Positions 4,801-20,789 of a stretch of DNA of 20,891 nt are shown piece by piece. Source of the DNA: an uncultured Flavobacteriales bacterium (GTDB taxonomy: Bacteria > Bacteroidota > Bacteroidia > Flavobacteriales_G > Salibacteraceae); assembly GCA_913045895.1 (NCBI GenBank), contig CAJWSQ010000021.1:1-20891 (forward strand), written 5' to 3'. Every line of letters starts with the position of its first letter. Position 1 is the first letter of the stretch. A program made the translations under genes and the position numbers. The notes below the pieces were generated by a model. It saw nothing but the letters and a program-made list of their open reading frames with translations, ran no database searches and was not told where the DNA came from.

Positions 4801-4825
4801 TTTAGTTAGTTAATTGAGTATTTGA

Positions 4826-5488: not shown

Positions 5489-5496
5489 TGTTTTTA

Positions 5497-6228: not shown

Positions 6229-6233
6229 AGATA

Positions 6234-6629: not shown

Positions 6630-6679
6630 TATGCTTTAAGTTTATGGTTAATAATTACGTAGATTGTGGACTAAGTAAC

Positions 6680-6692
6680 AGCTTACAATATA
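6680..6692. promoter_or_regulatory. First copy of the 13-bp direct repeat AGCTTACAATATA (the second copy is at 6767-6779). It lies in the divergent intergenic region between the ybjN-pspA operon and the XRE-S24 gene and is a candidate operator.
   Basis: Exact 13/13 identity between 6680-6692 and 6767-6779, with the two copies' start positions 87 bp apart (74 bp between them). Confidence 0.4.
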
Positions 6693-6762
6693 GCACTTTT
6701 AGTTAGTGAGGGGAGAACACATTTTCCTTTCTTCTTTTTGCATGTTTGACAATTTAATTAGC

Positions 6763-6797
6763 TTTGAGCTTACAATATACTAAATATTTTAGTTTTG
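6763..6797 (+). promoter_or_regulatory. Candidate Bacteroidetes sigma-A promoter for the XRE-S24 gene. TTTG (-33) is at 6763-6766 and TAGTTTTG (-7, matching TAnnTTTG) at 6790-6797. The 13-bp element AGCTTACAATATA (6767-6779) lies exactly between them, where an operator would sit.
   Basis: There is an exact TAnnTTTG match 30 bp upstream of the ATG at 6828. A TTTG lies 23 nt upstream of it. The repeat element occupies the spacer. Confidence 0.45.
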
Positions 6798-6827
6798 CTA
6801 ATATTATTAGTAATTATTTTTTGAGAA

Positions 6828-7601: not shown

Positions 7602-7603
7602 AT

Positions 7604-8296
7604 ATGGCTGATAAAATTAGTAGCCTTGTAAATGAGATAAATTCCTACTTATCAGACCGAGTATTATCTCGTCAAGAAAAAAGAGATTTAAAATCTATCA
7701 TTCAATCTATCTCATTGAATGAACATGATAAAACAGTTTTCTTATCAAAAGTTAGAGATTTACTTTTTGAAAATAAGTGGAACGCTTCGAGTGAACAACA
7801 AATTGAATGGTTCTATGAAATCTCTAAGTTGATTATAGCTACAGAAACAAATACTAACGAACACAACTCAAGTGCACGATTTAGCCCAGGAACTTCGTGT
7901 AGAGAAGCCATTTGTAATGCTATTCGATTCGCTAACAAAACCATAAGAATATGTGTTTTCACAATTAGTGATGATGATATCACAGAAGAAATAATCCGTG
8001 CACACAGATTGGGTAAAGACGTTAAAATAATAACTGACAACGATAAATCTTTTGATTTAGGATCTGACATTGAAGAAATGGAAAGAGCAGGCATTCCTGT
8101 AACTATGGATAATACTAGCGCTCACATGCATCATAAATTTGCGCTATTTGATAACAAAAAGTTGATTACAGGAAGTTACAACTGGACAAGATCGGCAGCA
8201 TCTCACAACCATGAAAATATAATTCTTACTCAAGACAAAACATTGGTTGAGGCGTTCATCCACGAGTTTAACACACTATGGAAAGAGTTGAATTAA
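7604..8296 (+). CDS. Phospholipase D-family single-HKD-domain protein (Nuc-like endonuclease/PLD nuclease superfamily), 230 aa, with a ~90-aa N-terminal extension of unknown function.
   Basis: A perfect HKD motif, HMHHKFALFDNKKLITGSYNWT (HxKxxxxD-x6-GSxN). The upstream beta-alpha segment (RICVFTISDDDITEEIIRAHRLGKDVKIITD) is typical of PLDc_2. Its start lies 3 bp after the stop of the XRE-S24 gene, indicating translational coupling. Confidence 0.8.
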   Translation: MADKISSLVNEINSYLSDRVLSRQEKRDLKSIIQSISLNEHDKTVFLSKVRDLLFENKWNASSEQQIEWFYEISKLIIATETNTNEHNSSARFSPGTSCREAICNAIRFANKTIRICVFTISDDDITEEIIRAHRLGKDVKIITDNDKSFDLGSDIEEMERAGIPVTMDNTSAHMHHKFALFDNKKLITGSYNWTRSAASHNHENIILTQDKTLVEAFIHEFNTLWKELN

Positions 8297-8347
8297 ACTC
8301 ATCCTAATCACCTATTTTCGCAAGCGCATTATAAGTCTTGCCGAACC

Positions 8348-10420
8348 ATGAAGTTTTTATTGAATACCCTATGCTTTTTACTCTGCATACAGCTTTGCTA
8401 TGCTCAACAAGATTTTTCTGATAAAACATACTTTCTAATTGATTCACTCAACCATTTTGAACTCAGTGGAGATGACAGCATACTTGTATTATCTAAAATA
8501 GAAAGCTATCACCAAGCAACTGAAGACACAAATAGACTCGCCATATTAGTAGAACTGGTAGAAGAATGCTGGAACGATGATGTATGGCCTCGGTATAATT
8601 CAGTGGTTTTATCGCAGGCAACGGATGCTTTAAATAAGATTGATAACCAAAAACTCCGCAACAAATACTTGCATTATCAGGGTGTAGCCTACGCCAATCA
8701 AGGTTACTTACACGATATTCAAAGTGATTTTGATATTGCTGAACAACACTATCTAAAAGCCTTAAAAGCATTTGAAGAAAGTGATGACGAGAAAGGCCAA
8801 GGCAAAATGCTTTACGCTATTGCACTCATTAATGAGGAACGAGGACGGGTACAAGTAGCCATTGATTATTTCAACAAATCACTCCGCCTAGCTGAGGCAA
8901 GTGGCGACTCCACTGGTTTGACTCATTTGTCTATGAGTTTGGGAGATATCCACTCAAGCTTGAGCAATAAAGAGGAAGCAATGGATCACTACAAACGTGC
9001 TTTACAGTTAGCTAAAGGCACTGGTGATAAACGCCTTGAAGGGTTTGCATCTACCACTTTAGCAACCATGTATTTATATCAGGAAGATTATGAACAAGCT
9101 CGCGAATTGAGTCTAAAAGGCATTCAACTTTTAGATGAAGCAAAAGCAGGAGCTGACAAAATAAACGGGTTGGATGTATTGGGTAGAATAGCTGCAAAAC
9201 AAGGTCAACTTGATTCTGCCGAGATGTACTTTACCGAAATCATTAGGTTGGCTGAAAATGCTAATCGACCACAAGATTTAGTACAAGGACTTTACTCACT
9301 TGCTCAAAATGATCTGAAGCGAGGTGATTTTACTAAAGCTGAAAAAAATGCAAAGGAAGCTTATCGTATCACTAAAGAGTTGGACTTAAAATATAAACTG
9401 AGCGATGCCGCTGGTTTACTGGCAGAGATTTACACGCAAACCAATAAGTATAAAGAAGCCAATAAATACTTGTTGGAGTTTAATAATCTGAAAGATACAC
9501 TCCGCAATGAAAACCTTAAAAACCAAGCTTTAAAGCAATCTATAGAATACGAGTACGAAAAACAAAAAGCTGTTGATGAAGCTGAGCATGAAGCCCAATT
9601 AGCAATTGCCGCTGCACGTGAATCCAGACAAAACATCATCATTTGGGCTGTTGCTGCAATCTTAGTTTTAATCAGCATTGCATTGGTGTTGAATTTCTTC
9701 CGTTTACGTACCATTCGAAAACAAAAAGAAGAACTGGATGAAGCATATCATCAACTGGAACTGAGTAAAAACGATAAAATTCTAGCCTCGAACTTGAAGG
9801 CACTTCAGGCGCAGATGAATCCACACTTTATTTTCAATGCGCTGAATTCCATCCAAACATTGGTGTTGCATGGAGACGTAGATAGCTCTTACGATTACAT
9901 CAACAAATTTGCGATGTTAATCAGAGAAACGCTCAATGCTTCTGAGCAAGAATTTATTCCGATTGAAAAAGAGATTGAATCGCTTGAAACGTATTTGAAT
10001 TTAGAAAAGCTAAGATTCAGAGAAGATTTCAATTATCAAATAAAAGCTCCAAATGAAGTTCCAGATAAGTACATCCCTCCTATGCTAATTCAACCGTTTA
10101 TTGAAAATGCACTGAAACATGGCCTTTTCCACAAAGAAACCGATCGTGAGCTGGATGTAAAAATCACTATTTCAGATACACTTACTTGTGTGATTGAAGA
10201 CAACGGAATTGGTAGAAAAGCATCTAAAAAAATCAATCAAAGTAGAAGTGCTAGTCACAAATCATATGCTATTAGCTCTATTAAAAAGCGCTTGGAAATG
10301 ATGCAAGAAAAACTCAAAACAACCATCGGTGTGAATTACGAAGATTTGGAAGAAAATGGCCAAGCTGTTGGAACAAGAGTCACCATCAGAATTCCAATTT
10401 ATGACCGTTCCTCAAATTAA
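8348..10420 (+). CDS. Sensor histidine kinase, LytS/YehU type (His_kinase plus HATPase), with signal peptide, large periplasmic TPR-repeat sensor domain and a single transmembrane helix. 690 aa.
   Basis: Signal peptide MKFLLNTLCFLLCIQLCYAQQ. TPR-like repeats (AIALINEERGRVQVAIDYFNKSLRLAE..., AMDHYKRALQLAK...). Transmembrane helix IIIWAVAAILVLISIALVLNFF. The His_kinase (PF06580-type) motif LKALQAQMNPHFIFNALNSIQ carries the phospho-accepting His. The ATPase-region motifs are PPMLIQPFIENALKHG and IEDNGIG. Confidence 0.85.
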   Translation: MKFLLNTLCFLLCIQLCYAQQDFSDKTYFLIDSLNHFELSGDDSILVLSKIESYHQATEDTNRLAILVELVEECWNDDVWPRYNSVVLSQATDALNKIDNQKLRNKYLHYQGVAYANQGYLHDIQSDFDIAEQHYLKALKAFEESDDEKGQGKMLYAIALINEERGRVQVAIDYFNKSLRLAEASGDSTGLTHLSMSLGDIHSSLSNKEEAMDHYKRALQLAKGTGDKRLEGFASTTLATMYLYQEDYEQARELSLKGIQLLDEAKAGADKINGLDVLGRIAAKQGQLDSAEMYFTEIIRLAENANRPQDLVQGLYSLAQNDLKRGDFTKAEKNAKEAYRITKELDLKYKLSDAAGLLAEIYTQTNKYKEANKYLLEFNNLKDTLRNENLKNQALKQSIEYEYEKQKAVDEAEHEAQLAIAAARESRQNIIIWAVAAILVLISIALVLNFFRLRTIRKQKEELDEAYHQLELSKNDKILASNLKALQAQMNPHFIFNALNSIQTLVLHGDVDSSYDYINKFAMLIRETLNASEQEFIPIEKEIESLETYLNLEKLRFREDFNYQIKAPNEVPDKYIPPMLIQPFIENALKHGLFHKETDRELDVKITISDTLTCVIEDNGIGRKASKKINQSRSASHKSYAISSIKKRLEMMQEKLKTTIGVNYEDLEENGQAVGTRVTIRIPIYDRSSN
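9540..10420 (+). repeat. About 0.88-kb direct repeat (copy 1), which pairs with 11690-12570 (copy 2). It encodes the TM helix plus the entire transmitter half of the two kinases. Nucleotide identity is about 85-90% by eye.
   Basis: The proteins are colinear and almost identical from KQSIEYEYEKQ.. to ..RVTIRIPIYD. The DNA aligns with scattered synonymous changes. Confidence 0.8.
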
Positions 10421-10496
10421 TTGTACGCTGTGTCAAGTAAAATTGAGTAATCGCCTCCTTCCTCTACTTTCGCCCGCATTAAAGCATTGCCAATTC

Positions 10497-12587
10497 ATGA
10501 AGTATCTCTTTAGCATTCTGTGTTTCCTGCTTAGCCTACAATTTTCCTTCGCGCAAAAAGATTTTTCAGACAAAGCCTACTTCTTGGTTGATTCGTTGAA
10601 TTTCATTGAGCTTTCAAAAAACGATTCTCTACTCATTCTTGAAACGGCAAAAAACTACCATGCAGCCAAGCACGATACCACCAAGCTCCAAATCCTTGAA
10701 AATCTGGTGGATGAATGCTGGAATGATGATGTTTGGCCGCGCTACAATCTGTTTATGCGAAATGAAGCCAAAAGACTGATTTCAACCGTTGATTCAGGAA
10801 GCGATGAATGGCGCAGGTATTTGTATTTTCTGGGAAGTGGAACCGGAGGAATCGGCTTCCAATTTGATGTAATTGGTCAAACAGATTCGGCCACTCATTA
10901 CTACCACGAAGCACTGGAGTATTTTATTAAAGGGAATCATACTGAAGGTGAAAGCCTTATTTACGATGCTCTTGCCATGATATATGAATTGAAGGGAGAC
11001 ATGCGTAAGGCGCTTGAATTCTATAACAAGGCTCTACAATTGGCAGAAAAAAATCACGACTCAATCGCAATAGCTAATGCAGCGGTTAGCTTGGGAGATT
11101 TACATGGTGAATTGAAGAATTATCAGCTGAGCCGAGAACTATACTTAGAAGCTATTGAAGCTGCACATGCTACCAATCAAAAACGTGTTGAAGGATTCAC
11201 TTACACCTCATTAGCAACCGACTATGTCGACAGAAATAAAACTGACAGCGCAAAAATCCTGACTAAGATCGGATTGAAAATCTTGGAAGATTCCGGAAAC
11301 GAAAATACCATGAGTAATGGATTTAACATGCTCGGAAATATTGCGCTTTTTGAAAAAAAACTTGACACCGCTCGATACTATTTCAATGAAATGGATCGGA
11401 TTGCCATAGCCAATCATCAGCCCGAGGATATGATTATAGCTCAGAGTAATCTTTACAGAGTTGAAAGAGCTTCTGGGAATTACGCGAAAGCTAAAATCCA
11501 CGCTCTAAACGGATATCGGGTAGCTAAGGCCAACGATTTCCCTGGCCTATTGAGCAGAACTTCTAAAGATTTGGCTCAAATTTACGCCCAACAAAACCAA
11601 AGCGATTCCGCCTATAAATATTTATTGGAATACTCCATTTTGAGTGATAGCATAGTAAACACCGAGCTTAAAAATGAAGCGATCAAACAATCGATAGAAT
11701 ACGAATACGAAAAACAACAGGCAATTGATGAGGCTGAACACGAAGCCGAAATGGCTATTGCTGCTGCACGTGAATCTAGGCAAAACATTATCATTTGGGC
11801 AGTTGCCGCAATCTTAGTTTTAATCAGCATTGCATTGGTGATGAATTTCTTCCGTTTACGCACCATTCGAAAACAAAAAGAAGCGTTAGATGAAGCATAT
11901 CATCAACTGGAATTGAGTAAAAACGATAAGATTCTTGCATCGAATTTAAAGGCACTTCAGGCACAAATGAATCCGCATTTTATTTTCAATGCGTTAAATT
12001 CCATCCAAACATTGGTGTTGCATGGAGATGTAGATAGCTCTTACGATTACATCAATAAATTCGCGATGTTGATCAGAGAAACGCTCAATGCTTCTGAACA
12101 AGAATTTATTCCGATAGAAAAAGAAATTGAATCACTTCAAACGTATTTGAAATTAGAGAAGCTTCGGTTTAGAGATGACTTCAATTATGAGATCAACACG
12201 CCAGATCGCATTCCAAACAAGTACATCCCTCCTATGCTGATTCAGCCATTTATTGAAAACGCACTGAAACATGGTCTTTTCCACAAAGAAACCGATCGTG
12301 AGTTGGATGTAAAAATCACTATTTCAGATACACTTATTTGTGTGATTGAAGATAACGGAATTGGTAGAGAAGCATCTAAAAAAATCAATCAAAGTCGCAA
12401 TGCAGATCACAAATCATACGCCATTGGCTCAATTAAAAAGCGATTGGAAATGATGCAAGAAAAACTCAAAACAACCATCGGTGTGAATTACGAAGACTTG
12501 GAAGAAAATGGTACCGCAGTCGGAACACGAGTTACCATTAGAATTCCGATTTACGACAGTTCGTCAAATAAAACCAACGCTGCGTAA
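10497..12587 (+). CDS. Paralogous TPR-sensor histidine kinase (LytS/His_kinase type), 696 aa. The C-terminal ~295 aa are near-identical to the upstream kinase, and the TPR sensor domain is divergent.
   Basis: The ORF-track entry 10356..12587 overlaps the upstream gene. The in-frame ATG at 10497 gives the start MKYLFSILCFLLSLQFSFAQKDFSDKAYFLVDSLN, homologous to the HK1 start MKFLL...YAQQDFSDKTYFLIDSLN. It has the same TM helix, H-box (MNPHFIFNALNSIQ) and ATPase motifs. Confidence 0.85.
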   Translation: MKYLFSILCFLLSLQFSFAQKDFSDKAYFLVDSLNFIELSKNDSLLILETAKNYHAAKHDTTKLQILENLVDECWNDDVWPRYNLFMRNEAKRLISTVDSGSDEWRRYLYFLGSGTGGIGFQFDVIGQTDSATHYYHEALEYFIKGNHTEGESLIYDALAMIYELKGDMRKALEFYNKALQLAEKNHDSIAIANAAVSLGDLHGELKNYQLSRELYLEAIEAAHATNQKRVEGFTYTSLATDYVDRNKTDSAKILTKIGLKILEDSGNENTMSNGFNMLGNIALFEKKLDTARYYFNEMDRIAIANHQPEDMIIAQSNLYRVERASGNYAKAKIHALNGYRVAKANDFPGLLSRTSKDLAQIYAQQNQSDSAYKYLLEYSILSDSIVNTELKNEAIKQSIEYEYEKQQAIDEAEHEAEMAIAAARESRQNIIIWAVAAILVLISIALVMNFFRLRTIRKQKEALDEAYHQLELSKNDKILASNLKALQAQMNPHFIFNALNSIQTLVLHGDVDSSYDYINKFAMLIRETLNASEQEFIPIEKEIESLQTYLKLEKLRFRDDFNYEINTPDRIPNKYIPPMLIQPFIENALKHGLFHKETDRELDVKITISDTLICVIEDNGIGREASKKINQSRNADHKSYAIGSIKKRLEMMQEKLKTTIGVNYEDLEENGTAVGTRVTIRIPIYDSSSNKTNAA

Positions 12588-12622
12588 AGTAAATTTGCAC
12601 AACCAGTTACTAGTAATTTGAT

Positions 12623-13363
12623 TTGAACTCCATGAATAAAATACGCGCAATAATAGTTGATGATGAAGCCAGTGCACGCGAAAACTTGGCACTACTCATT
12701 AATCGATTCTGCCCCAATATTGAGGTGCTTTCATCATTCAATTTATTGAAAAAGGCGGTTGATTATTTACAAAATAACGAGGTTGATGTAGTTTTTTTGG
12801 ATGTTGAAATGCCCGAACATGCTGGTTATGAAATCGTGGACTTTTTTGATGAAATCAATTTCGATATCGTGTTTTGTACAGCTTACGATAAGTACGCCAT
12901 CAAGGCATTTGAAATCTCTGCAATTGATTATTTACTGAAACCAGTAGACATCACACGTTTAAAACAGGCCGCTGAGAAACTTCAGGAGAAACAACTTTTC
13001 AGAATCACCCAAGAACAAGTCAATCAAATAAATAGCTCGTTTAGAAACACCATAAAAGTAATGGATCGTGGTGAGCGTGTTCTGCTAAACAAAACAGATA
13101 TTATTGCTATTGAAGGTCAATCTGCTTACAGTAAAATTTACACCCTCGATAAAAACTACACCGCCAGTAAAAACATTGCGCAACTGGAAGAAGAATTGGT
13201 GAATGATTCGTTTTTCTACCGCAGTCAAAAATCGTGGATTGTAAACCTCAACTACATTGACAAAGTCAATAAAACCGATAAAATAATCCATCTCCAACAA
13301 GGTATTGATGCTAAAGTATCGCGCCAAAAGTCAAAAGAATTTTACGAGTTAATCAACTTGTAA
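12623..13363 (+). CDS. LytTR-family response regulator (REC receiver plus LytTR DNA-binding domain), 246 aa.
   Basis: REC signature: KIRAIIVDDEASARENLALLI...VDVVFLDVEMPEHAGYEIV...IVFCTAYDKYAIKAFEISAIDYLLKP. LytTR signature: VLLNKTDIIAIEGQSAYSKIYT...ELVNDSFFYRSQKSWIVNLNYIDKV. It lies 35 bp after the second kinase. Confidence 0.9.
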   Translation: MNSMNKIRAIIVDDEASARENLALLINRFCPNIEVLSSFNLLKKAVDYLQNNEVDVVFLDVEMPEHAGYEIVDFFDEINFDIVFCTAYDKYAIKAFEISAIDYLLKPVDITRLKQAAEKLQEKQLFRITQEQVNQINSSFRNTIKVMDRGERVLLNKTDIIAIEGQSAYSKIYTLDKNYTASKNIAQLEEELVNDSFFYRSQKSWIVNLNYIDKVNKTDKIIHLQQGIDAKVSRQKSKEFYELINL

Positions 13364-13366
13364 AAG

Positions 13367-13399
13367 CACTTCCTCAAATAAAAATCACACTTCCTCAAA
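13367..13399 (+). promoter_or_regulatory. Pair of direct repeats cACTTCCTCAAA (13367-13378 and 13388-13399) with 21-bp periodicity (12-bp repeat plus 9-bp spacer). This is a candidate LytTR response-regulator binding site just upstream of a TAGGTTTG -7 box (13428-13435).
   Basis: Two perfect copies of CACTTCCTCAAA start exactly 21 bp apart. LytTR regulators (the AgrA/ComE/PlnC paradigm) bind 9-10-bp direct repeats with a 12-bp spacer. The same arrangement recurs upstream of the next two genes. A TAnnTTTG match lies about 30 bp downstream. Confidence 0.55.
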
Positions 13400-13469
13400 G
13401 CTATTTTTCTTCGATTGAAAGGGACTCTAGGTTTGCTTGATCTTATTCAAACAAACAACATACCTTATC

Positions 13470-15002
13470 ATGAAAAGAATTTTACTCAGCCTGGCTTTAG
13501 CAAGTAGCAGTTTATTGAGCATTCAAGCACAATCAACCATTTACGTAAACGATGATGCTACTGGAAACAACGATGGATCTTCTTGGGCAAACGCATACAA
13601 CGATTTAAACGAAGCGTTGACGAACAGCTCTACAAATGATGAAATCTGGATTGCAGAAGGATTTTATACCAGAACATCTTCTACCGAAACTTTTAGAGTT
13701 GATAACGATGTTAGAATTTACGGTGGTTTTAGCGGAAATGAAACGGACAAAGACCAACGAAACATAAAAGCAAATCCTACGGTTGTTAGTGGAGATGTAA
13801 GTTGGAACGACCAAGGTATTGTTAGCAGTTCAAACAGCTATATGCAAGACAATGCCGAGCACGTATTTGAAGTACATAGCACCAACAGAGCCGTTTTTGA
13901 TGGACTTATTATTGAACACGCTTTTAGTACAACAGCAGCAGGTGGTGGAATTTATGTGTACTCTCAATCGATGAACAATTTGGAAATTTCAAACTGTATT
14001 ATCAGAGAGAATGTGTCTGCCAACAGAGCCGGAGTTCTTTTCTATTCAGAAGTTCCAGCGGCATTTTTGATGTACAACAACATTATTGAAAAGAATGTGA
14101 ATGCAGATTTCAACTCTGCTTATACCGTTGAATACAGAATTACTGGAAACAGCCACGTTTATTCAGAAGTACACATGGTGAACAACCTGTTTAACGACAA
14201 CATTACAGAAGCATTTGGTATGGGTGGAACTTGCGGAAGGTTTACCATCACACCTGGAGGTTGCGAGATAGACATTTTCCTAATCAATAACACTTTCATC
14301 AATAATGCTCAAGGCAGCAACATACCTGGCTTATTCGCTTATGAGTCTCATGGAGCTTCAAGCTACTTCTACCCTCACATCAGCAACAATATCTTCTACA
14401 ACAATTATGAAGCAACAGACATCTTTAGAGTTTCAAATGGAAGTGCTAATACATTAGTTATCTTCCCAGAAGATTCTCATAACAATATTCAAGATTTTCC
14501 TGATCTACAAGGGTTAACCAATACGCAAATCATTAACGCTACGCCTTTTGTAGATTTTGTAAATGGAGATTACAGACCAATTGCAGCTTACGAAACTGGT
14601 GGAAATCCAGCCATGTACAGCAATTCAAATTTGATAGATGTATTTGCCGATCAAATGTATCCAGAGTTAGATTTAGCAGGAAATCCAAGATTTAATACTC
14701 AAGGAGAAATAGCTATTGGAGCTAGTCAGGCAGGTCCAAATACTTTGAGTGTAGATGATTTGAAAGAAACTGCCAATTTGAGCATCTTCCCCAATCCAGC
14801 TGACAACATCATTACCATAAAACATGAGTTAACTGGTAACTTAGACATTTCGATTTACACGTTAACTGGAGCTCAGGTTTCTAACACCGTTCTTTCTGAT
14901 AATTTAAACACGATTGATGTTTCTAATTTACCAACTGGCTACTACATTTTGAAAGCTAAATCAGGCAATCAAGAACACGTAGAAAAACTCATTATAAAAT
15001 AA
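13470..15002 (+). CDS. Secreted T9SS cargo protein (510 aa from the ATG). It has a signal peptide, a conserved N-terminal beta-helix-family motif, a parallel beta-helix-like repeat region and a Por-secretion-system C-terminal sorting domain. Paralog 1 of 3.
   Basis: The ORF track starts at a TTG (13437). The ATG at 13470 gives MKRILLSLALASSSLLSIQAQ, a typical signal peptide. The motif IYVNDDATGNNDGSSWANAYNDLNEAL...IWIAEGFYT...YGGFSGNET is shared with the next two genes. The C-terminal domain is FPNPADNIITIKHEL...GYYILKAKSGNQEHVEKLIIK. Confidence 0.8.
   Translation: MKRILLSLALASSSLLSIQAQSTIYVNDDATGNNDGSSWANAYNDLNEALTNSSTNDEIWIAEGFYTRTSSTETFRVDNDVRIYGGFSGNETDKDQRNIKANPTVVSGDVSWNDQGIVSSSNSYMQDNAEHVFEVHSTNRAVFDGLIIEHAFSTTAAGGGIYVYSQSMNNLEISNCIIRENVSANRAGVLFYSEVPAAFLMYNNIIEKNVNADFNSAYTVEYRITGNSHVYSEVHMVNNLFNDNITEAFGMGGTCGRFTITPGGCEIDIFLINNTFINNAQGSNIPGLFAYESHGASSYFYPHISNNIFYNNYEATDIFRVSNGSANTLVIFPEDSHNNIQDFPDLQGLTNTQIINATPFVDFVNGDYRPIAAYETGGNPAMYSNSNLIDVFADQMYPELDLAGNPRFNTQGEIAIGASQAGPNTLSVDDLKETANLSIFPNPADNIITIKHELTGNLDISIYTLTGAQVSNTVLSDNLNTIDVSNLPTGYYILKAKSGNQEHVEKLIIK
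14781..14999 (+). repeat. About 220-bp T9SS C-terminal-domain-coding repeat, copy 1 of 4. The other copies are at 16880-17098, 18948-19166 and 20568-20786.
   Basis: The four 73-aa C-terminal domains are over 75% identical. The DNA of copies 3 and 4 is the most similar. Confidence 0.7.
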
Positions 15003-15030
15003 CATCTAAACGATTCATGTTTGAATAATC

Positions 15031-15070
15031 AAAGGCTCGGTATCTCTTGATATTGGATCTTTGTGTTTTT
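15031..15070 (+). terminator. Degenerate rho-independent terminator-like hairpin plus T-tract after paralog 1 (AGGCTCGGTATC..GATATTGGATCTTTGTGTTTTT).
   Basis: An imperfect stem with several G-U pairs followed by TTTGTGTTTTT. It is homologous to the cleaner terminators after paralogs 2 and 3. Confidence 0.4.
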
Positions 15071-15079
15071 ATAAAATGT

Positions 15080-15111
15080 ACTTCCTCAAATAAAAATTGC
15101 ACTTCCTCAAA
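15080..15111 (+). promoter_or_regulatory. Second instance of the ACTTCCTCAAA direct-repeat pair (cores 15080-15090 and 15101-15111, 21 bp apart), with a TACGTTTG -7 box at 15140-15147.
   Basis: It has the same 21-bp periodicity and the same position relative to the TAnnTTTG box as at 13367-13399. Confidence 0.55.
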
Positions 15112-15196
15112 GTTATTTCTTTAAGCGTTTTTGAGCCGCTACGTTTGCGGCATCTTATTCAAACAAACAACATTAATTCAAATGAAACACAGAGCT

Positions 15197-17101
15197 ATGA
15201 AAAAAGCTTTACTCAGTTTAGCCTTGGCTACTGGCGCTATGTTTAGCGCAAAAGCACAAACTATTATTTACGTTGATGCAGATGCAACAGGAAGCAACAA
15301 CGGTTCTACATGGGCAAGTGCCTACACCAATTTAGCAAATGCACTAGATAATAACGGTGTTACAGGTGCACAGATTTGGATTGCTGAAGGAACCTACACT
15401 CCTTATTATTCTAACTCCTCTTTCAATATTAGACATGGCGAAAAACTATATGGTGGTTTTAACGGTACTGAAACTTCGATTTCGCAAAGAAATCCAGCAC
15501 AAAACATAACCATCTTAAGTGGTGATGTTTACGATGACGATTCTTTAGGCAATTACTATAACAATGCTAAAAGAATTATTAATGTAGATCCATATGACCC
15601 AAATAACACATTGAATGGTGAAGAAGTGGTTCTATTAGATGGGCTTACTATTTCAGACGCTTACAGTACAAGTACTGCTGGAGGTGGGCTTGGAACTGAT
15701 TATCCCGGAGTATACCAAAAGGGTATTAGAATTTACAACTGCATCTTCGAAAACAACACCAATCGTTATCAGTCTGCGTTTAACTTCTATACGAGTTATG
15801 CTGATCCGGTTCTTGAAGTTTCGAATTCAATCTTCAGAAACAATCATGCATTAGAAGCATACACAGTAGAGTTTAGAGTTACTAACACTACCGGAGTTGA
15901 GTATCATGCAACATTCACAAACAACCTATTCGAAAACAATACAACAGTTGACTCTGTAACCGCAGGCGGTGGTGTAGCAGGTAGATTTGCAAACTTCTCT
16001 TTTACTACGTTTGAAATTCAATTGACCAACAACACATTCATTGGAAACAGCAACAATAATGGCAACTTCAATAAATGTCTATTTGTTTCAGAAAAAGGTA
16101 GTTCTGCAAATGCCGATATCATCATGGATTTCGACAACAACCTGTTTTATGACAATGTCAATTTACACAACATTGTAATGGACAATAACGCTATCTGGAC
16201 CACCAAATACATTGGTGCAAATTGTAAGAATAACGGTGGCGACTGGAACCAATTAAACAGCTTTGTTGGAAGCCTTATTAGTCCGAATGATCCTTTTGAA
16301 GATTACGCTGCAGGCGACTTAAGACCAACAACAAGTTACTCTACACAAGGTGATACAGCTTCTTATCTTTCTACTTGGACAGATTACGATTTAGCGGGCG
16401 AAGACCGTATGGATTATGTAAATGGCACAATCGCTGTTGGAGCTTACCAAAGAGGTGTAGTTTGCCAAAATACAACTGCAACCATCAATGCTGAAGTATG
16501 TGAATATTATGAATCTCCGAGCGGTGATGAAGACTGGACAGTTTCCGGAACTTATGTAGATACTATTCCTAATTCGTGTGGCATGGATAGCATCATTACG
16601 GTAAATCTCACCGTGATAGTTGACTGGGGAGTTACCATTTCAAACAATGGAACCACACTTACCGCGAATCAGGACAATGCCACTTACCAATGGTACAGCT
16701 GCAACGAGCCTAAAGGGCCTGTAGATAGCGCTACAAGCCAATCATTTACGCCAACCACTCCGGGTATTTATGCTGTGGAAATCACTTTTGACAGTTGCGA
16801 AGTTTTTTCAGATTGCTTTGAAGTTGACAGCGTTGCAGCTCCTTTAGGAATTTCAGATGTAAGTTCAGCAGCTAACTTTCACATTTATCCTAATCCGGCA
16901 AATGACATCATCACCGTAAAACACGAGTTGAATAGCAACATTCAAGTTTCTATTTACACGTTAACTGGAGCACAAGTATCAAACACCATTGTTTCAGGTA
17001 ACTCTAACACAATTGATGTTTCTACTCTACCTGCTGGTTACTACATTTTGAAAGCAAAATCTGGTGATTTAGAACACGTAGAAAAACTCATTATTCAATA
17101 A
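15197..17101 (+). CDS. Secreted T9SS cargo protein, paralog 2 (634 aa from the ATG at 15197; an alternative ATG is at 15182). It has a signal peptide, the beta-helix-family N-terminal motif, a Cys-containing middle module and the T9SS C-terminal domain.
   Basis: Start MKKALLSLALATGAMFSAKAQ, homologous to the MKRILLSL starts of the other paralogs. The ORF-track start at 15131 is a TTG inside the promoter cassette. Motif IIYVDADATGSNNGSTWASAYTNLANAL...IWIAEGTYTP...YGGFNGTET. C-terminal domain FHIYPNPANDIITVKHEL...YYILKAKSGDLEHVEKLIIQ. Confidence 0.8.
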   Translation: MKKALLSLALATGAMFSAKAQTIIYVDADATGSNNGSTWASAYTNLANALDNNGVTGAQIWIAEGTYTPYYSNSSFNIRHGEKLYGGFNGTETSISQRNPAQNITILSGDVYDDDSLGNYYNNAKRIINVDPYDPNNTLNGEEVVLLDGLTISDAYSTSTAGGGLGTDYPGVYQKGIRIYNCIFENNTNRYQSAFNFYTSYADPVLEVSNSIFRNNHALEAYTVEFRVTNTTGVEYHATFTNNLFENNTTVDSVTAGGGVAGRFANFSFTTFEIQLTNNTFIGNSNNNGNFNKCLFVSEKGSSANADIIMDFDNNLFYDNVNLHNIVMDNNAIWTTKYIGANCKNNGGDWNQLNSFVGSLISPNDPFEDYAAGDLRPTTSYSTQGDTASYLSTWTDYDLAGEDRMDYVNGTIAVGAYQRGVVCQNTTATINAEVCEYYESPSGDEDWTVSGTYVDTIPNSCGMDSIITVNLTVIVDWGVTISNNGTTLTANQDNATYQWYSCNEPKGPVDSATSQSFTPTTPGIYAVEITFDSCEVFSDCFEVDSVAAPLGISDVSSAANFHIYPNPANDIITVKHELNSNIQVSIYTLTGAQVSNTIVSGNSNTIDVSTLPAGYYILKAKSGDLEHVEKLIIQ

Positions 17102-17133
17102 CCCACAAACTATTTATGTTTGAATAATCAGAG

Positions 17134-17170
17134 GCTCGATACTGAAAAGTATCGGGCTTTTGTGTTTTGT
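17134..17170 (+). terminator. Rho-independent terminator: GCTCGATACT-gaaa-AGTATCGGGC followed by TTTTGTGTTTTG.
   Basis: A 10-bp stem (one G-U pair), a 4-nt loop and a T-rich tract immediately after the stop codon of paralog 2. Confidence 0.65.
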
Positions 17171-17178
17171 AGAAATGC

Positions 17179-17210
17179 ACTTCCTCAAATAATAATTACA
17201 CTTCCTCAAA
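17179..17210 (+). promoter_or_regulatory. Third instance of the ACTTCCTCAAA direct-repeat pair (cores 17179-17189 and 17200-17210, 21 bp apart), with a TACGTTTG -7 box at 17239-17246.
   Basis: Identical architecture to the two upstream cassettes. The conserved downstream stretch is CGTTTGCGnCATCTTATTCAAACAAACAACATTAA. Confidence 0.55.
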
Positions 17211-17294
17211 GCTATTTCGCAGCGCGTGTTTGAGCCTCTACGTTTGCGCCATCTTATTCAAACAAACAACATTAACACTAAGAAAAAAAGGAAC

Positions 17295-19169
17295 ATGAAA
17301 CGAATTTTACTCAGCTTAGTATTATTGGCAACAAACTTTGTTGCAGCTAATGCGCAAACTGTAATTTACGTTGATGCAGATGCAACTGGAAACAACGATG
17401 GATCTTCATGGGCAAATGCATACACCAGTCCAAAAACAGCTTTAGATAGCAATACAGTTATCGGTGCAGAGGTTTGGATTGCTGAAGGCACGTATACACC
17501 GCCCGGAATTAATGATTATTTTATACTTCGCTTAGGTGAAAAATTATATGGTGGTTTTGATGGTACAGAAACAACTAGAGATCAAAGAGATCCTGAAGCG
17601 CATGTAACCATTCTAAGTGGTGATATTGATGGTGATGATGCTAGCGGAAATTACAGTAACAACGCCTATAAACTTGTTTATGTAGAAACAAATACACCGG
17701 GAGTTCCAGATGAAGTATTAATTGTAGACGGAATTACTTTTTATGGTGCTTACAGTACTTGGGGATCTGGTGCTGCTTTTGGAGCTAATCAAGGTATTAT
17801 TGGTAGCAAAGAACTTCGCATCAACAATTGCACATTTGACCAAAACGTTTGCTATTATGCCCCTGCTTTCAATTTTAGATCTGCTGCAGATTCTCAATTG
17901 GTAACTGTTACAAATTGCATTTTCAGCAACAATAGATACTTAACTGGCTATGTTTTTGAACTAGTAGTGGCAACTCAAACAAGTGGTTCAAAACAGGCTA
18001 TAATCGCCAATAATCTATTCATAGATAATTACAAATTTTCTACTTCAACATTCAACAGCGTTGCATTTATTGATATTAACACACCTAGCACATATTCTGT
18101 GCAATTCACCAACAACACTTTTGTAATTGATTCAACTGTTGCCAATGGATCAACCATGCCTGGAATCATAAAAGTGCGAAGTAGTCAAGTTAATGGTGAT
18201 GTAGTTTTGGATTTTGATAACAACCTTTTCTACACGGCTGATAGTACCAACTTTACCTTGGTGCAAGATATTGGATCATTTCCTTCTACGTCATATACCA
18301 ACAGCAGTAACACAAACAACGGTGGTAACTGGTCTGGTTTAAGTGTATTAAGTAATAGTGTAATTGATACGGTAAATTCTCCGTTTTTAGATTTCGCTAA
18401 TGGTGATTACAGACCAACAACTACTTACAATATACAAGGAGATGTAAACTCATACGACACCAACTGGTCTGCATTTGATTTAGCAGGCGAAAGTAGAGTA
18501 AACCCATACAGTGGTTCAATTGCAATTGGTGCCTACGAATATGTTTCATGTATGCCAACATCAGCTACAATCCTTCAAGTAGCTTGTTTGGAATATACTT
18601 CACCAAGTGGAAAAGTTTGGAATGCTACAGGAACTTATTTTGACACCATTCAAAATGCTTGTGGGTTAGACAGTCTAATGAGATTCGAAATCTTGATTGC
18701 ACTTAACCCTACTGTAACTGTTGCACCAAGCGGTACAGTATTGATGGCAAATCAAGGTTTAGCAACTTACCAATGGTATGACTGCGCAACCAATCAACCT
18801 ATTTCAGGAGCTACAGACCAAACATTTCAACCAACCCAAACAGGCGATTATGCTGTAGAAGTAACCTTAGATAGCTGCACAGCTCTTTCTGATTGTCACA
18901 ATGTAGTGGTTACAGGAGTAAATGATTTGAAGAAAGCCTCTAACTTGAATATCTATCCCAACCCTGCCGATAACATCATTACCGTAAAACATGAATTATC
19001 TAGCAACCTTGAAGTTTCTATTTATACAGTGACTGGAGCTCAAGTTTCAAGCACTATCGTTTCAGGCAACACAAACACCATTGATGTTTCTGCTCTACCT
19101 GCAGGTTATTACATATTAAAAGCTAAAGCAGGAAATTTAGAACACGTTGAAAAACTGATTATTCAATAG
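17295..19169 (+). CDS. Secreted T9SS cargo protein, paralog 3 (624 aa from the ATG at 17295). It has the same N-terminal beta-helix-family motif, Cys-containing module and T9SS C-terminal domain.
   Basis: Start MKRILLSLVLLATNFVAANAQ. Motif VIYVDADATGNNDGSSWANAYTSPKTAL...VWIAEGTYTP...YGGFDGTETTRDQR. It shares CxEYxSPSG..W..SGTYxDTIxNxCGxDS and ATYQWYxC...G.YAVE.T.DSC..SDC modules with paralog 2. C-terminal domain LNIYPNPADNIITVKHEL... Confidence 0.8.
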   Translation: MKRILLSLVLLATNFVAANAQTVIYVDADATGNNDGSSWANAYTSPKTALDSNTVIGAEVWIAEGTYTPPGINDYFILRLGEKLYGGFDGTETTRDQRDPEAHVTILSGDIDGDDASGNYSNNAYKLVYVETNTPGVPDEVLIVDGITFYGAYSTWGSGAAFGANQGIIGSKELRINNCTFDQNVCYYAPAFNFRSAADSQLVTVTNCIFSNNRYLTGYVFELVVATQTSGSKQAIIANNLFIDNYKFSTSTFNSVAFIDINTPSTYSVQFTNNTFVIDSTVANGSTMPGIIKVRSSQVNGDVVLDFDNNLFYTADSTNFTLVQDIGSFPSTSYTNSSNTNNGGNWSGLSVLSNSVIDTVNSPFLDFANGDYRPTTTYNIQGDVNSYDTNWSAFDLAGESRVNPYSGSIAIGAYEYVSCMPTSATILQVACLEYTSPSGKVWNATGTYFDTIQNACGLDSLMRFEILIALNPTVTVAPSGTVLMANQGLATYQWYDCATNQPISGATDQTFQPTQTGDYAVEVTLDSCTALSDCHNVVVTGVNDLKKASNLNIYPNPADNIITVKHELSSNLEVSIYTVTGAQVSSTIVSGNTNTIDVSALPAGYYILKAKAGNLEHVEKLIIQ

Positions 19170-19202
19170 TTACAATATCCAATTTCATGTTTATCATAAA
19201 AA

Positions 19203-19319: not shown

Positions 19320-20789
19320 ATGAGAAAAATTTTACTCTTAGTCTTTTCTGTATGTTCAATTGCGCAGGCACAAGTTTTTAATTGGAGTTCAGAAGTAGAC
19401 CCATCGTACAACAATGTTTCTGTTCACACGACTTCGCCATCAGGTGAAGTATACCTTAGTAAGCACACCAAAAACCCTTCTCCATCGTATTACGGAACAA
19501 ACGACATAGTTAAATACGATACTGCTGGAAATGAACAATGGCAATATTCTATTGGTGGAAATGCTCGGGTTCAAACCATGTTGTATCATGAAGGTACTCT
19601 TTTTTTTAGCGGAGTTTTTAGAGATTCTTTAAGATTCAACGATTCCTTAATCACCATCTCATCATTTCTTGATTTAAGCTTTATTGTATCAATTGATAGC
19701 GATGGCAACTTCAATTGGTTAACCACTCCATGGACAACAAAACGAGCTATCTATAATCTCAAGCAATATGACCAAACGCTTTATGCTGTTACAATTGGAT
19801 CTGGCTGGGGGTCAGAATCAATCGCTGAATTTGACTTAAACGGTAATTTACAGAATGAAGAAACTTTTAGTGGTGCCGTATCCATTTCAGATTTTGTTTT
19901 TGATGATTCAGATAATATCTACATCAGTGGCTACTGCAATTCGGGCGCTACTTTTGGTAATCTAACCATTCCTAATACAGGGTCTAGTTACAATTCATTT
20001 ATTCTAAAAACAGATGCCAATTTCAATCCTATTTGGTTAGATGCTGGTCCGCATATCACGTTCGATTTTGAGCCTAAAGTCTACATGGTTGATGATACAC
20101 TTTATTATTTCCATGCCCGTAAAACACCAACTCACGGAGCAACTCCATACATCTTTAAATATACTCAACAAGGTGATTTAGCTGATTCTATCTCATTCAG
20201 AAATTCTTGGTCACCGTATTATGAACATGGATGGACAAAACATAATGGTGAAGACGTTATCGTTATGCTAGAGCTCAAAATTGCAGCTGAATTTGGTGGT
20301 TTTCCGCTCTACTTTTTAGATAAAAACCTATCCATACTCAGAGCTGATACGTTAAGCAGTCTACATATATCTTACACTCATTTTAGTGCATCTGATGAAG
20401 CTATTTGCATTACTGGCAAAGCCAATTACGGTATCACATATAATAGTGACACGCTGCTTTCATTTAATGGTGGAGATGGAAATGGTATCATTCACTTCAG
20501 CTACGACCAAGACACTACAGGGAATCACTTAAGCACTGAACTAATCTCAAGCAACGATTTACCTGTTCGTCTTTACCCCAATCCAGCCGATGATATCATT
20601 ACTATTCAACATGAGCTATCAAGCAACCTAGAGGTTTCGATATACACAGTAACTGGAGCTCAGGTTTCAAGCACCATTATTTCAGGAAACTCAAAAACCA
20701 TTGATGTTTCTACTCTACCGGCCGGTTATTACATTTTAAAAGCTAAGGCAGGCGATTTAGAACACGTTGAAAAACTGATTATTCAATAA
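19320..20789 (+). CDS. Secreted T9SS cargo protein (489 aa) with a signal peptide, a repetitive beta-propeller-like (SBBP-like) body and the T9SS C-terminal domain. It is unrelated in its body to the three upstream paralogs.
   Basis: Signal peptide MRKILLLVFSVCSIAQAQ. A repeated motif (..DxxGNxxW..; SDNIYISGYCNSGATFGNLTI) suggests beta-propeller blades. The C-terminal domain LYPNPADDIITIQHELSSNLEVSIYTVTGAQVSS...YYILKAKAGDLEHVEKLIIQ is nearly identical to that of paralog 3. Confidence 0.75.
   Translation: MRKILLLVFSVCSIAQAQVFNWSSEVDPSYNNVSVHTTSPSGEVYLSKHTKNPSPSYYGTNDIVKYDTAGNEQWQYSIGGNARVQTMLYHEGTLFFSGVFRDSLRFNDSLITISSFLDLSFIVSIDSDGNFNWLTTPWTTKRAIYNLKQYDQTLYAVTIGSGWGSESIAEFDLNGNLQNEETFSGAVSISDFVFDDSDNIYISGYCNSGATFGNLTIPNTGSSYNSFILKTDANFNPIWLDAGPHITFDFEPKVYMVDDTLYYFHARKTPTHGATPYIFKYTQQGDLADSISFRNSWSPYYEHGWTKHNGEDVIVMLELKIAAEFGGFPLYFLDKNLSILRADTLSSLHISYTHFSASDEAICITGKANYGITYNSDTLLSFNGGDGNGIIHFSYDQDTTGNHLSTELISSNDLPVRLYPNPADDIITIQHELSSNLEVSIYTVTGAQVSSTIISGNSKTIDVSTLPAGYYILKAKAGDLEHVEKLIIQ

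What the first reader, a model, noticed from the sequence alone, without database searches (positions are those of the whole stretch)
8348..12587. Tandem sensor kinases with near-identical transmitter halves and divergent TPR sensor domains
Over their last ~295 residues (TM helix, H-box and ATPase domain) the two kinases are ~90% identical at the protein level. At the nucleotide level 9540-10420 and 11690-12570 are ~85-90% identical. Their ~430-aa periplasmic TPR domains are only distantly related. This pattern suggests either recent duplication followed by rapid sensor diversification, or gene conversion that homogenises the regulator-facing half. Homogenisation would keep both sensors specific for the single downstream LytTR regulator. 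Two inputs would then drive one output. The 0.9-kb direct repeats are also a substrate for deletion or fusion that would create a hybrid sensor.
Basis: seen in the sequence. Interest (0 to 1): 0.5.

Follow-up and report, generated by a model that had tools for sequence, protein, structure and literature searches.

The report
Tandem sensor kinases with homogenised transmitter halves
Two neighbouring sensor kinase genes of an uncultured marine Bacteroidota bacterium have very old, very different sensor halves. Their signalling halves were copied onto each other much later, so both probably signal to the same single regulator, and related strains carry the fused one-kinase gene that recombination between these repeats would produce.

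Summary
K1 (8348-10420) and K2 (true start 10497, to 12587) are head-to-tail 2152-nt paralogous units. Nucleotide mismatch drops from 51% to 12% at one sharp breakpoint (9515 / 11667), and the repeat ends at 10445 / 12597.

Synonymous sites are saturated in the TPR sensors but give dS of about 0.5-0.6 in the transmitters. Recent duplication followed by fast sensor divergence is therefore rejected.

Each sensor type (S1, S2) has its own orthologues at 61-71% identity in other species, where it occurs as the only kinase. All transmitters of the window group form one clade in which the paralogues interleave. This points to domain-restricted homogenisation, most likely gene conversion, of ancient tandem paralogues.

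A sister strain (L088) shows a 542-nt perfectly identical tract inside the repeat. That tract could be an assembly artefact.

Two related strains (L081, L097) carry one hybrid kinase: S1 sensor, T1-like 5' end, T2-like 3' end. This is the product expected from T1 x T2 unequal crossover.

An 84-aa run around the phospho-accepting His493 is identical in K1 and K2. There is a single LytTR regulator, and conserved paired boxes sit upstream of three T9SS cargo genes. Two inputs feeding one output is an inference; it has not been tested.

This is a new variant of known kinds and moderately interesting.

The parts
8294..10445 (+). Tandem unit 1 (2152 nt): leader, K1 and 25 nt past its stop codon
   Evidence: Start-to-start spacing is a constant 2152 nt for three repeat families. 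The ~50-nt leaders upstream of K1 and K2 align.
10446..12597 (+). Tandem unit 2 (2152 nt): leader and K2
   Evidence: Same evidence as unit 1. The repeat ends at 12597, after which sequence unique to the region upstream of the regulator begins.
8348..10420 (+). K1, a TPR sensor histidine kinase of 690 aa. Layout: signal peptide, TPR sensor S1, one TM helix, His_kinase (PF06580), HATPase_c.
   Evidence: Pfam: TPR_12 1e-23; His_kinase 1.9e-23; HATPase_c 25.6 bits, just under the 26.4 cutoff. Hydropathy shows an N-terminal signal and one TM helix at aa 430-451.
10497..12587 (+). K2, the paralogous TPR sensor histidine kinase of 696 aa with sensor S2
   Evidence: Pfam. Gene calls of 696 aa in L085-L088. 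Alignment with K1.
8408..9514 (+). S1 periplasmic TPR sensor (K1 aa 21-389)
   Evidence: 37% aa identity to S2, with synonymous sites saturated. Orthologues at 89-94% (L081, L097, L088) and 68-71% (L084, P0002). Omega about 0.11 between orthologues.
10557..11666 (+). S2 periplasmic TPR sensor (K2 aa 21-390)
   Evidence: Orthologues at 89% (L088) and 61-65% (L089, L091, L092, each the only kinase at its locus). Omega 0.10.
9515..10445 (+). T1, homogenised repeat copy 1: juxtamembrane helix, TM helix, DHp/His_kinase, ATPase, truncated tail and 25 nt beyond
   Evidence: Breakpoint chi-square 353 at 9515. Blastn 87.9% over 933 nt. dS 0.52-0.60, omega 0.07. The K1 stop codon is an AAA to TAA change that removes the KTNAA tail kept by K2 and L081.
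11667..12597 (+). T2, homogenised repeat copy 2, adjacent to the regulator gene
   Evidence: Same evidence as T1. T2 with the downstream region is 92.5% identical to L081, against 87.6% for K1.
9734..9985 (+). 84-aa run (K1 aa 463-546) identical in K1 and K2. It spans the phospho-accepting His493 (codon 9824-9826) and the DHp helices.
   Evidence: dN 0.007 and dS 0.51 for aa 421-540.
9991..10085 (+). Divergent island in T1. It is probably an unconverted relic of the ancestral S1-linked transmitter.
   Evidence: 19-26% nt divergence from every other window-group transmitter. It shares E570, D573 and K624 with the S1-type kinases L084 and P0002. This is suggestive only.
10086..10251 (+). Candidate conversion tract specific to the window lineage (partner at 12238-12403)
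   Evidence: T1/T2 divergence is 7.2% here, against 11-17% to all orthologues. Permutation test for the longest concordant run gives p = 0.018. This is modest support.
12632..13363 (+). The only response regulator in the window (receiver plus LytTR DNA-binding domain, 243 aa)
   Evidence: Pfam: Response_reg 1e-18, LytTR 1e-17. NCBIfam nearest families are BtsR and LytR, below their cutoffs. Gene calls of 243 aa in relatives.
13368..13399 (+). Paired direct-repeat box ACTTCCTCAAA-N10-ACTTCCTCAAA (21-bp period) upstream of cargo gene 1
   Evidence: Three perfect matches in the window against 0 expected. Conserved in L081, L097, L088, L084, L089, L091 and L092. A TAnnTTTG element lies about 29 nt downstream.
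15080..15111 (+). The same paired box upstream of cargo gene 2
17179..17210 (+). The same paired box upstream of cargo gene 3
13470..19169 (+). Three paralogous T9SS cargo genes (13470-15002, 15182-17101, 17295-19169), each preceded by the paired box
   Evidence: Por_Secre_tail in Pfam and TIGR04183. Gene calls in L085. Pairwise identities.
19320..20789 (+). Fourth T9SS cargo gene. Its body is unrelated to the other three, its sorting domain is the same, and it has no paired box.
7604..8296 (+). PLD-like gene directly upstream of unit 1. It serves as a polarity marker.
   Evidence: PLDc_2 8e-31. The single-kinase strains L081 and L097 keep only a 27-codon remnant that joins the gene's N- and C-termini.

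Best explanation
K1 and K2 are ancient tandem paralogues. Each is a single-pass sensor kinase with a periplasmic TPR sensor and a PF06580-type transmitter.

The sensor halves S1 and S2 have diverged to 37% identity. Each is kept under purifying selection as a separate lineage, and each is also found as the only kinase in other species.

The 931-nt 3' halves (juxtamembrane helix, TM helix, DHp with His493, ATPase) were homogenised by non-reciprocal homologous recombination, that is, gene conversion. The donor was probably the regulator-adjacent copy T2. The last full-length event happened shortly before the window, L088 and L081 lineages split. Shorter tracts followed.

Strong purifying selection then kept the DHp identical. 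Both kinases are therefore predicted to phosphorylate the single LytTR regulator encoded just downstream. That regulator is predicted to bind the paired 11-nt boxes (21-bp period) upstream of three T9SS cargo genes. This would give two inputs and one output.

The same repeats are recombination substrates. A T1 x T2 unequal crossover deleted the 3' part of T1, all of S2 and the 5' part of T2 in the L081/L097 lineage, leaving one hybrid S1 kinase.

Shown: the repeat, the breakpoint, the dS discontinuity, the tree incongruence, the hybrid structure and the conserved boxes.

Inferred: the direction of conversion, phosphotransfer from both kinases, and regulator binding to the boxes.
For: 1. Sharp breakpoint at 9515 / 11667 (chi-square 353), with mismatch 51% to the left and 12% to the right.

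2. Synonymous sites are saturated in the sensors (pS 0.83-0.97; third-position identity 0.32 against 0.27 expected). In the transmitters dS is 0.52-0.60.

3. The transmitter is not intrinsically slow. Between orthologues, sensor and transmitter aa identities are similar (S 0.63-0.78, T 0.72-0.77). Orthologous transmitter dS (0.63-0.76) is at least as high as in the flanking sensor (0.19-0.64) and the regulator gene (0.29-0.47).

4. The sensor tree gives deep S1, S2 and S3 clades. The transmitter tree puts all window-group transmitters in one clade (100% bootstrap) with paralogues interleaved, sister to the transmitters of S2-type kinases (99.5%).

5. L088 has a 542-nt perfectly identical T1/T2 tract flanked by 15-16% divergence (permutation p = 0.0002). 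The tract is T2-like.

6. The window-lineage tract 10086-10251 is 7% divergent between paralogues and 11-17% divergent from orthologues. The T1 island 9991-10085 keeps residues typical of S1-type transmitters.

7. In the L081/L097 single kinase, the 5' 195 nt is closest to T1_L088 (0.07-0.11). The 3' 194 nt and the downstream region are closest to T2_L088 (0.057; 0.04-0.09).

8. Polarity of the deletion:
- L088 (tandem) is closer to L081/L097 than to the window (S1 dS 0.19 against 0.28; T2-to-cargo region about 92-93% against 89.5% over the whole contig).
- L081/L097 carry a PLD remnant.
- No S2 sequence from such a strain exists in the protein collection.

9. An 84-aa identical run lies around His493, and differences cluster in loops of the ATPase domain.

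10. The window holds one LytTR regulator gene. The paired boxes occur three times in the window against 0 expected and are conserved in seven related loci with either sensor type.
Against: - The main homogenisation is old (dS about 0.5-0.6). Much of the protein identity therefore reflects purifying selection and does not require continuing conversion.
- The clearest recent tract (L088) comes from a single short-read metagenome scaffold. An assembler could have collapsed two similar repeat copies.
- The tract specific to the window lineage is only modestly significant (p = 0.018).
- The hybrid orthology pattern in L081/L097 is symmetrical. Integration of a circular [T-S2-T] segment into a single ancestral kinase would produce the same pattern.
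- All data are metagenomic. No other regions of the genome are available, so other kinases or regulators elsewhere could be partners.
- No biochemical data exist.
Confidence: 0.75

Rival explanations
1. A single cassette-acquisition event, with no continuing conversion. The ancestor had one kinase. A segment carrying the other sensor, flanked by transmitter sequence from a related strain (about 85% identical), integrated by one homologous crossover within the transmitter. That produced S1-T-S2-T in one step. On this view L081 and L097 keep the ancestral single state.
For: The flanks of T1 and T2 keep orthology with the 5' and 3' parts of the single L081/L097 transmitter. Integration predicts this pattern just as deletion does. 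Overall T1/T2 dS (0.5-0.6) fits a single event near the radiation of the strains. Single-kinase cassettes with either sensor are the rule in other species.
Against: The tandem strains are paraphyletic: L088 is nearer to L081/L097 than to the window. L081/L097 show an independent deletion scar in the PLD gene next door. The two units are whole-gene, head-to-tail repeats with homologous leaders. T1 in the window keeps an island with S1-lineage residues. L088 and the window show different internal tracts.
Confidence: 0.15
2. Recent whole-gene tandem duplication followed by very fast, possibly positively selected, divergence of the sensor half.
For: The units are colinear and head-to-tail with only one 1-codon indel.
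Against: Synonymous sites in the sensors are saturated, while transmitter dS is about 0.5. S1 and S2 each have separate orthologues at 61-71% in other species. Both sensors evolve under purifying selection between strains (omega about 0.1).
Confidence: 0.02
3. No recombination at all. The transmitter is simply far more constrained, or mutates more slowly, than the sensor.
For: The transmitter has low omega (0.07, and 0.014 over the DHp).
Against: Constraint on the protein cannot preserve third-codon positions (0.75 against 0.32 identity). Between orthologues, transmitter dS is as high as or higher than that of the flanking genes, and transmitter aa identity is similar to sensor identity. The change happens within a few codons. 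Five other neighbouring TPR-kinase pairs in other genomes show only 37-55% transmitter identity.
Confidence: 0.02
4. An assembly or binning artefact created the tandem arrangement or the single hybrid.
For: All sequences come from short-read metagenomes, and repeats of about 88% identity are hard to assemble.
Against: The tandem form is reproduced at 99.99-100% in four assemblies from different projects. The single form appears in four assemblies made with different tools. No orphan S2 sequence from a single-kinase strain exists in the protein collection. Only the 542-nt L088 tract remains exposed to this objection.
Confidence: 0.03

Closest known systems
LytS/LytR and BtsS(YehU)/BtsR-type two-component systems (PF06580 His_kinase plus HATPase_c kinase paired with a receiver-LytTR regulator)
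   Same: The transmitter type is the same (PF06580 hit at 1e-23, NPHF histidine motif). The regulator has the same architecture, and its nearest NCBIfam families are BtsR and LytR. The kinase gene lies directly upstream of the regulator gene.
   Different: The sensor is a periplasmic TPR solenoid of about 370 aa after a signal peptide, with a single TM helix. It is not the 5TM LytS-type membrane sensor. NCBIfam scores are far below the equivalog cutoffs. Two kinases share one regulator.
Staphylococcal agr (AgrC/AgrA) and streptococcal ComD/BlpH pherotype loci (recalled from established knowledge, not tested here)
   Same: A LytTR regulator binds paired direct repeats with a period of about 21 bp. 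The kinase has a highly divergent sensor half and a conserved transmitter half, with an abrupt boundary between them.
   Different: In those systems the divergent sensors are alleles in different strains. Here they are two genes in tandem in one genome. The sensors here are TPR domains, not polytopic membrane domains. No peptide signal gene is evident.
Branched many-to-one phosphorelays (KinA-E to Spo0F in Bacillus; LuxN/LuxQ/CqsS to LuxU in Vibrio) (established knowledge)
   Same: Several sensors with different input domains converge on one receiver.
   Different: In those systems the kinases are dispersed and their transmitters are not near-identical at DNA level. Convergence here is only inferred from the identical DHp.
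Concerted evolution of bacterial paralogues by gene conversion (tufA/tufB and rRNA operons as recalled examples; survey in PMC6053082)
   Same: Paralogues are kept similar by non-reciprocal recombination. Discrete tracts are visible, and paralogues are closer to each other than to orthologues (as in L088).
   Different: Here conversion is confined to one functional half of a multidomain signalling protein and stops at a domain boundary. The word 'kinase' does not occur in the text of the prokaryote-wide survey of 26 genes. Literature searches found no case of tandem histidine kinases.
Porphyromonas gingivalis FimS (sensor kinase with periplasmic TPR motifs)
   Same: It is the best-scoring named NCBIfam family for both kinases. 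It has a periplasmic TPR sensor and belongs to Bacteroidota.
   Different: Scores are 68-78 bits against a cutoff of 600, and the match covers only the TPR region. These kinases are not FimS orthologues.

Membership tests
PF06580-type (LytS/YehU-like) histidine kinase | His_kinase (PF06580) domain above the Pfam gathering score | tested here: met
   K1 83.0 bits and K2 83.8 bits, against a cutoff of 25.2
PF06580-type (LytS/YehU-like) histidine kinase | GHKL ATPase domain (HATPase_c) C-terminal to the His_kinase domain | tested here: inconclusive
   K1 25.6 bits and K2 21.6 bits, against a cutoff of 26.4. The match to the solved histidine kinase 6swj covers aa 487-626. N-box-like and G-box-like motifs (ENALKHG, EDNGIG) are visible in the alignment.
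LytS proper | N-terminal 5TM LytS-type membrane sensor domain | tested here: not met
   Pfam found no such hit. Hydropathy shows only a signal peptide and one TM helix.
LytTR response regulator | Receiver domain and LytTR DNA-binding domain, both above the gathering score | tested here: met
   Response_reg 67.9 bits (cutoff 30.2) and LytTR 64.5 bits (cutoff 22.6)
LytTR regulon architecture | Paired direct repeats of 9-11 nt with a period of about 21 bp, just upstream of the target promoters | tested here: met
   ACTTCCTCAAA-N10-ACTTCCTCAAA occurs three times against 0 expected. It is conserved upstream of cargo genes in seven related loci. Binding by this regulator was not tested.
Concerted evolution by gene conversion | Discontinuity in synonymous divergence with a sharp boundary inside the gene | tested here: met
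   pS falls from 0.83 to 0.38 at 9515
Concerted evolution by gene conversion | Phylogenetic incongruence between the converted and unconverted parts | tested here: met
   Sensor tree against transmitter tree, with 99.5-100% bootstrap on the conflicting nodes
Concerted evolution by gene conversion | Paralogues within a genome are closer than orthologues between genomes | tested here: inconclusive
   In L088 the paralogue dS is 0.22, against 0.63-0.76 for orthologues. That result depends on one scaffold. In the window the paralogue dS is 0.60, against 0.63-0.76, which is marginal.
Many-to-one (branched) two-component pathway | Both kinases phosphorylate the same regulator | not testable with these tools
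   Inferred from the 84-aa identical DHp and the single regulator gene in the 20.9-kb window
FimS (NF053520) | Score above the NCBIfam equivalog cutoff | tested here: not met
   68 and 78 bits, against a cutoff of 600
T9SS type A cargo | C-terminal Por_Secre_tail sorting domain | tested here: met
   All four downstream proteins score 54-60 bits, against cutoffs of 23-27

The most novel reading that the evidence does not exclude
The homogenised transmitter repeat may act as a recombination hinge for interchangeable sensor cassettes. A conserved backbone (transmitter, LytTR regulator, paired boxes, T9SS cargo) would carry sensor types S1, S2 or S3 as exchangeable specificity modules across a clade. 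Populations would gain or lose a sensor by RecA-dependent crossover within the hinge, moving between the tandem form and the single hybrid. This would resemble agr or pherotype specificity groups, but organised in tandem within one genome. Because TPR domains commonly bind peptides, it could be a periplasmic peptide-sensing system that controls secreted surface proteins.
Probability: 0.12. Interest if true: 0.75.

Novelty: new variant of a known kind. Interest (0 to 1): 0.48.

Why it matters
The usual view of duplicated two-component systems is that paralogues diverge at the kinase-regulator interface so that the pathways stay insulated from each other. This locus shows the opposite.

The interface half of two very old paralogues has been homogenised at DNA level and then frozen by selection. 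The input halves have been kept different. This gives a natural, sequence-level example of how a cell can add a second input to an existing output without evolving a new partner specificity.

It also shows the cost. The repeats are a deletion hotspot, and they have already produced a functional-looking hybrid kinase in related strains.

In addition, the locus defines a compact regulon that can be tested directly: one LytTR regulator, a perfect paired box, and three T9SS cargo genes. It belongs to an uncultured marine Bacteroidota lineage, where very few regulatory circuits are known.

Tried and rejected
- The scan of GTDB genomes with K1 was swamped by the generic NPHF-type pattern. It returned only distant kinases (26-52% identity) and no close relative.
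- The metagenome scan with the S2 sensor added nothing beyond L089.
- The protein search with the S2 sensor alone returned no hit even though P0005 contains the query. I treat this as a tool miss. I repeated the search with full-length K2, which showed that no further S2-type proteins above 70% identity exist in the collection.
- Sigma-70 promoter and terminator scans of 6600-13600 were at chance level and are not suited to Bacteroidota promoters.
- The resemblance between the 3' ends of K1 and K2 and the LytTR box pair (family D3) is not supported. Single-box matches with two mismatches occur at the chance rate (12 found, 10.7 expected).
- I counted sites where T1 and T2 of the window agree against all other strains (14 sites) as a possible test for conversion in the window lineage. 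I rejected this test. A single mutation on T2 in the sister clade, followed by the L088 tract, would give the same pattern. The clustering of these sites was also not significant (p = 0.09).
- Five other neighbouring TPR-kinase pairs (L006, L007, L040, L050, L074) were checked for the same pattern. None shows it (37-55% transmitter identity).
- Literature searches found no description of this system and none of gene conversion between tandem histidine kinases. The library does not cover all journals.

Full report
**Anatomy**

The window comes from an uncultured marine Bacteroidota bacterium. GC content is about 37%, T9SS cargo genes are present, and the closest contigs are TARA and other marine metagenome scaffolds.

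K1 is 8348-10420 (690 aa). K2 ends at 12587, but its real start is the ATG at 10497 (696 aa), not the ORF-list start at 10356. The evidence is the homology of its signal peptide with that of K1 and the 696-aa gene calls in four assemblies.

Both proteins share one layout:
- a signal peptide;
- a TPR region of about 370 aa;
- a juxtamembrane helix;
- one TM helix (aa 430-451);
- a PF06580 His_kinase domain with His493 in an NPHF motif;
- a weak HATPase_c match.

The genes are whole-unit, head-to-tail repeats of 2152 nt (8294-10445 and 10446-12597). The ~50-nt leaders are homologous, and only one 1-codon indel separates the two coding regions.

One receiver-LytTR regulator gene (12632-13363) follows, then four genes with T9SS sorting domains.

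**Checking the observation**

It is confirmed.
- The last 300 aa are 92% identical. Blastn gives 87.9% over 933 nt for 9515-10445 against 11667-12597. The sensors are 37% identical.
- A maximum chi-square scan places one breakpoint at 9515 / 11667 (chi-square 353). Mismatch is 0.513 to the left and 0.118 to the right.
- The repeat runs 25 nt past the K1 stop codon. That stop is an AAA to TAA change which removes a KTNAA tail still present in K2 and in relatives.
- The window is reproduced at 99.99-100% in three other assemblies.

**Duplication or homogenisation?**

Synonymous sites decide this question.
- In the sensors pS is 0.83-0.97. Third-position identity is 0.32, against 0.27 expected from composition. 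These sites are saturated.
- In the transmitters dS is 0.52-0.60, with omega 0.07 overall and 0.014 over aa 421-540.

The two halves therefore have very different ages. That rejects a recent duplication followed by fast sensor divergence.

The transmitter is not a slow region. Between orthologues, sensor and transmitter aa identities are similar (S 0.63-0.78, T 0.72-0.77). Orthologous transmitter dS (0.63-0.76) is at least as high as in the flanking sensor (0.19-0.64) and the regulator gene (0.29-0.47).

**Relatives**

The module of kinase, LytTR regulator and T9SS cargo is conserved in related contigs, and the sensor varies.
- L081, L082, L083, L097 and the more distant L084/P0002 carry only an S1-type kinase.
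- L089, L090, L091 and L092 carry only an S2-type kinase.
- P0010 has a third sensor type.
- Only the window population and L088 (89.5% nt identity to the window) carry S1 and S2 in tandem.

Neighbour-joining trees with bootstrap give deep S1 and S2 clades for the sensor, as deep as the outgroups. For the transmitter they give one tight clade containing all window-group copies (100%), with paralogues interleaved. That clade is sister to the transmitters of S2-type kinases (99.5%) and excludes the S1-type L084/P0002. The transmitter now attached to S1 in this group is therefore of S2-linked descent.

**Mosaic inside the repeat**

I aligned six transmitter sequences at nucleotide level.
- At the two flanks, orthology is retained. 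Over 9515-9709 the T1 copies group together. Over 10252-10445 the T2 copies group together.
- All 17 sites that support orthology lie in those flanks.
- In the middle, L088 has a 542-nt run of perfect T1/T2 identity (9710-10251 in window coordinates) between flanks that differ by 15-16% (permutation p = 0.0002). The tract is T2-like.
- In the window, 10086-10251 is 7% divergent between paralogues but 11-17% divergent from every orthologue (p = 0.018).
- The T1 island 9991-10085 is 19-26% divergent from all other copies. It shares three residues with S1-type transmitters of L084/P0002, so it may be a relic that escaped conversion.

One caveat applies. The L088 tract rests on a single short-read scaffold and could reflect a collapse of the two copies by the assembler. 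The older full-length homogenisation does not depend on it.

**The hybrid**

In L081 and L097 the single kinase has the following structure:
- an S1 sensor;
- a 5' transmitter segment closest to T1_L088 (0.07-0.11);
- a 3' segment closest to T2_L088 (0.057), with the downstream region also closest to T2_L088 (0.04-0.09);
- the full KTNAA tail.

This is the product expected from unequal crossover between T1 and T2. Integration of an excised circle into a single ancestral kinase would give the same pattern, so polarity needs other evidence. Three points favour deletion:
- L088 (tandem) is nearer to L081/L097 than to the window. S1 dS is 0.19 against 0.28, and the T2-to-cargo region is about 92-93% identical against 89.5% for the whole contig.
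- L081 and L097 carry a 27-codon scar of the PLD gene that is intact in the window.
- No orphan S2 sequence from such strains exists in the protein collection.

I therefore favour deletion, with the integration scenario at about 0.15.

**Function (inferred)**

K1 and K2 share an 84-aa identical run (aa 463-546) around His493. Their 25 substitutions lie in the juxtamembrane helix and in loops of the ATPase domain. Both sensors are under purifying selection between strains (omega about 0.1).

The window holds one regulator gene. Upstream of three cargo genes lies a perfect ACTTCCTCAAA-N10-ACTTCCTCAAA pair with a 21-bp period. It occurs three times against 0 expected. It sits about 29 nt upstream of a TAnnTTTG element and is conserved in seven related loci whichever sensor they carry. 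This is the classic LytTR site architecture, as recalled from established knowledge of AgrA, ComE and related regulators.

The most likely circuit is that two different periplasmic TPR inputs feed one regulator, which controls three T9SS cargo genes. Neither phosphotransfer nor DNA binding has been tested.

**Comparison and novelty**

The parts belong to known families, namely a PF06580 kinase, a LytTR regulator and T9SS cargo, and gene conversion is a known process.

What I could not find described is conversion restricted to the transmitter half of tandem kinases that keep anciently diverged sensors, together with its natural deletion hybrid (the library is incomplete). Five other neighbouring TPR-kinase pairs do not show the pattern.

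I rate it a new variant of a known kind, with interest of about 0.5.

Noticed in passing
window 13368-13399, 15080-15111, 17179-17210: Perfect paired direct repeats ACTTCCTCAAA-N10-ACTTCCTCAAA (21-bp period) lie upstream of three of the four T9SS cargo genes. Each is followed about 29 nt later by a Bacteroidota-type TAnnTTTG element and a conserved leader. They are conserved in seven related loci and are candidate binding sites for the LytTR regulator.
   Followed up: yes
window 13470-20789 (last ~225 nt of each of the four cargo genes): The cargo paralogues are 33-48% identical in their bodies, and the fourth has an unrelated body. Their T9SS C-terminal sorting domains are 66-85% identical, with third-position identity of 0.53-0.64. 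This is a second case of domain-restricted similarity in the same locus.
   Followed up: partly
L081 9890-9970; L097 5890-5970; window 7604-8296: The single-kinase strains keep a 27-codon remnant of the PLD-like gene. It joins the gene's N-terminus (MADKI...) to its C-terminus (...LWKELN) in frame. The gene is intact in the window.
   Followed up: yes
window 15040-15075, 17140-17175, 19205-19245: G+C-rich hairpins followed by T runs (GGCTCGGTATC...GATATCGGGCTTTTGTGTTTT) follow each cargo gene. Each cargo gene therefore looks like its own transcription unit, with its own terminator and its own regulator-dependent promoter.
   Followed up: no
window 1-7102 versus L081 2261-9389: The left flank (DUF3686/AAA gene, a 726-aa coiled-coil protein, PspA, a YbjN-like gene, an HTH-S24 repressor) is only 77% identical to L081. 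The region from the kinase through the regulator to the cargo genes is 88-92% identical. The locus therefore has a mosaic history between strains.
   Followed up: no
window 10405-10436 and 12557-12588: The 3' ends of K1 and K2 weakly resemble the paired LytTR box (72%). This would place a site upstream of K2 and of the regulator gene, but single-box matches at this level occur at the chance rate.
   Followed up: partly
window 6828-7601 and 7604-8296: An HTH-plus-Peptidase_S24 (LexA/CI-like) repressor gene is directly followed, 2 nt later, by a PLD-like nuclease or phospholipase-family gene. The pair sits just upstream of the kinase array. Its function is unknown.
   Followed up: no
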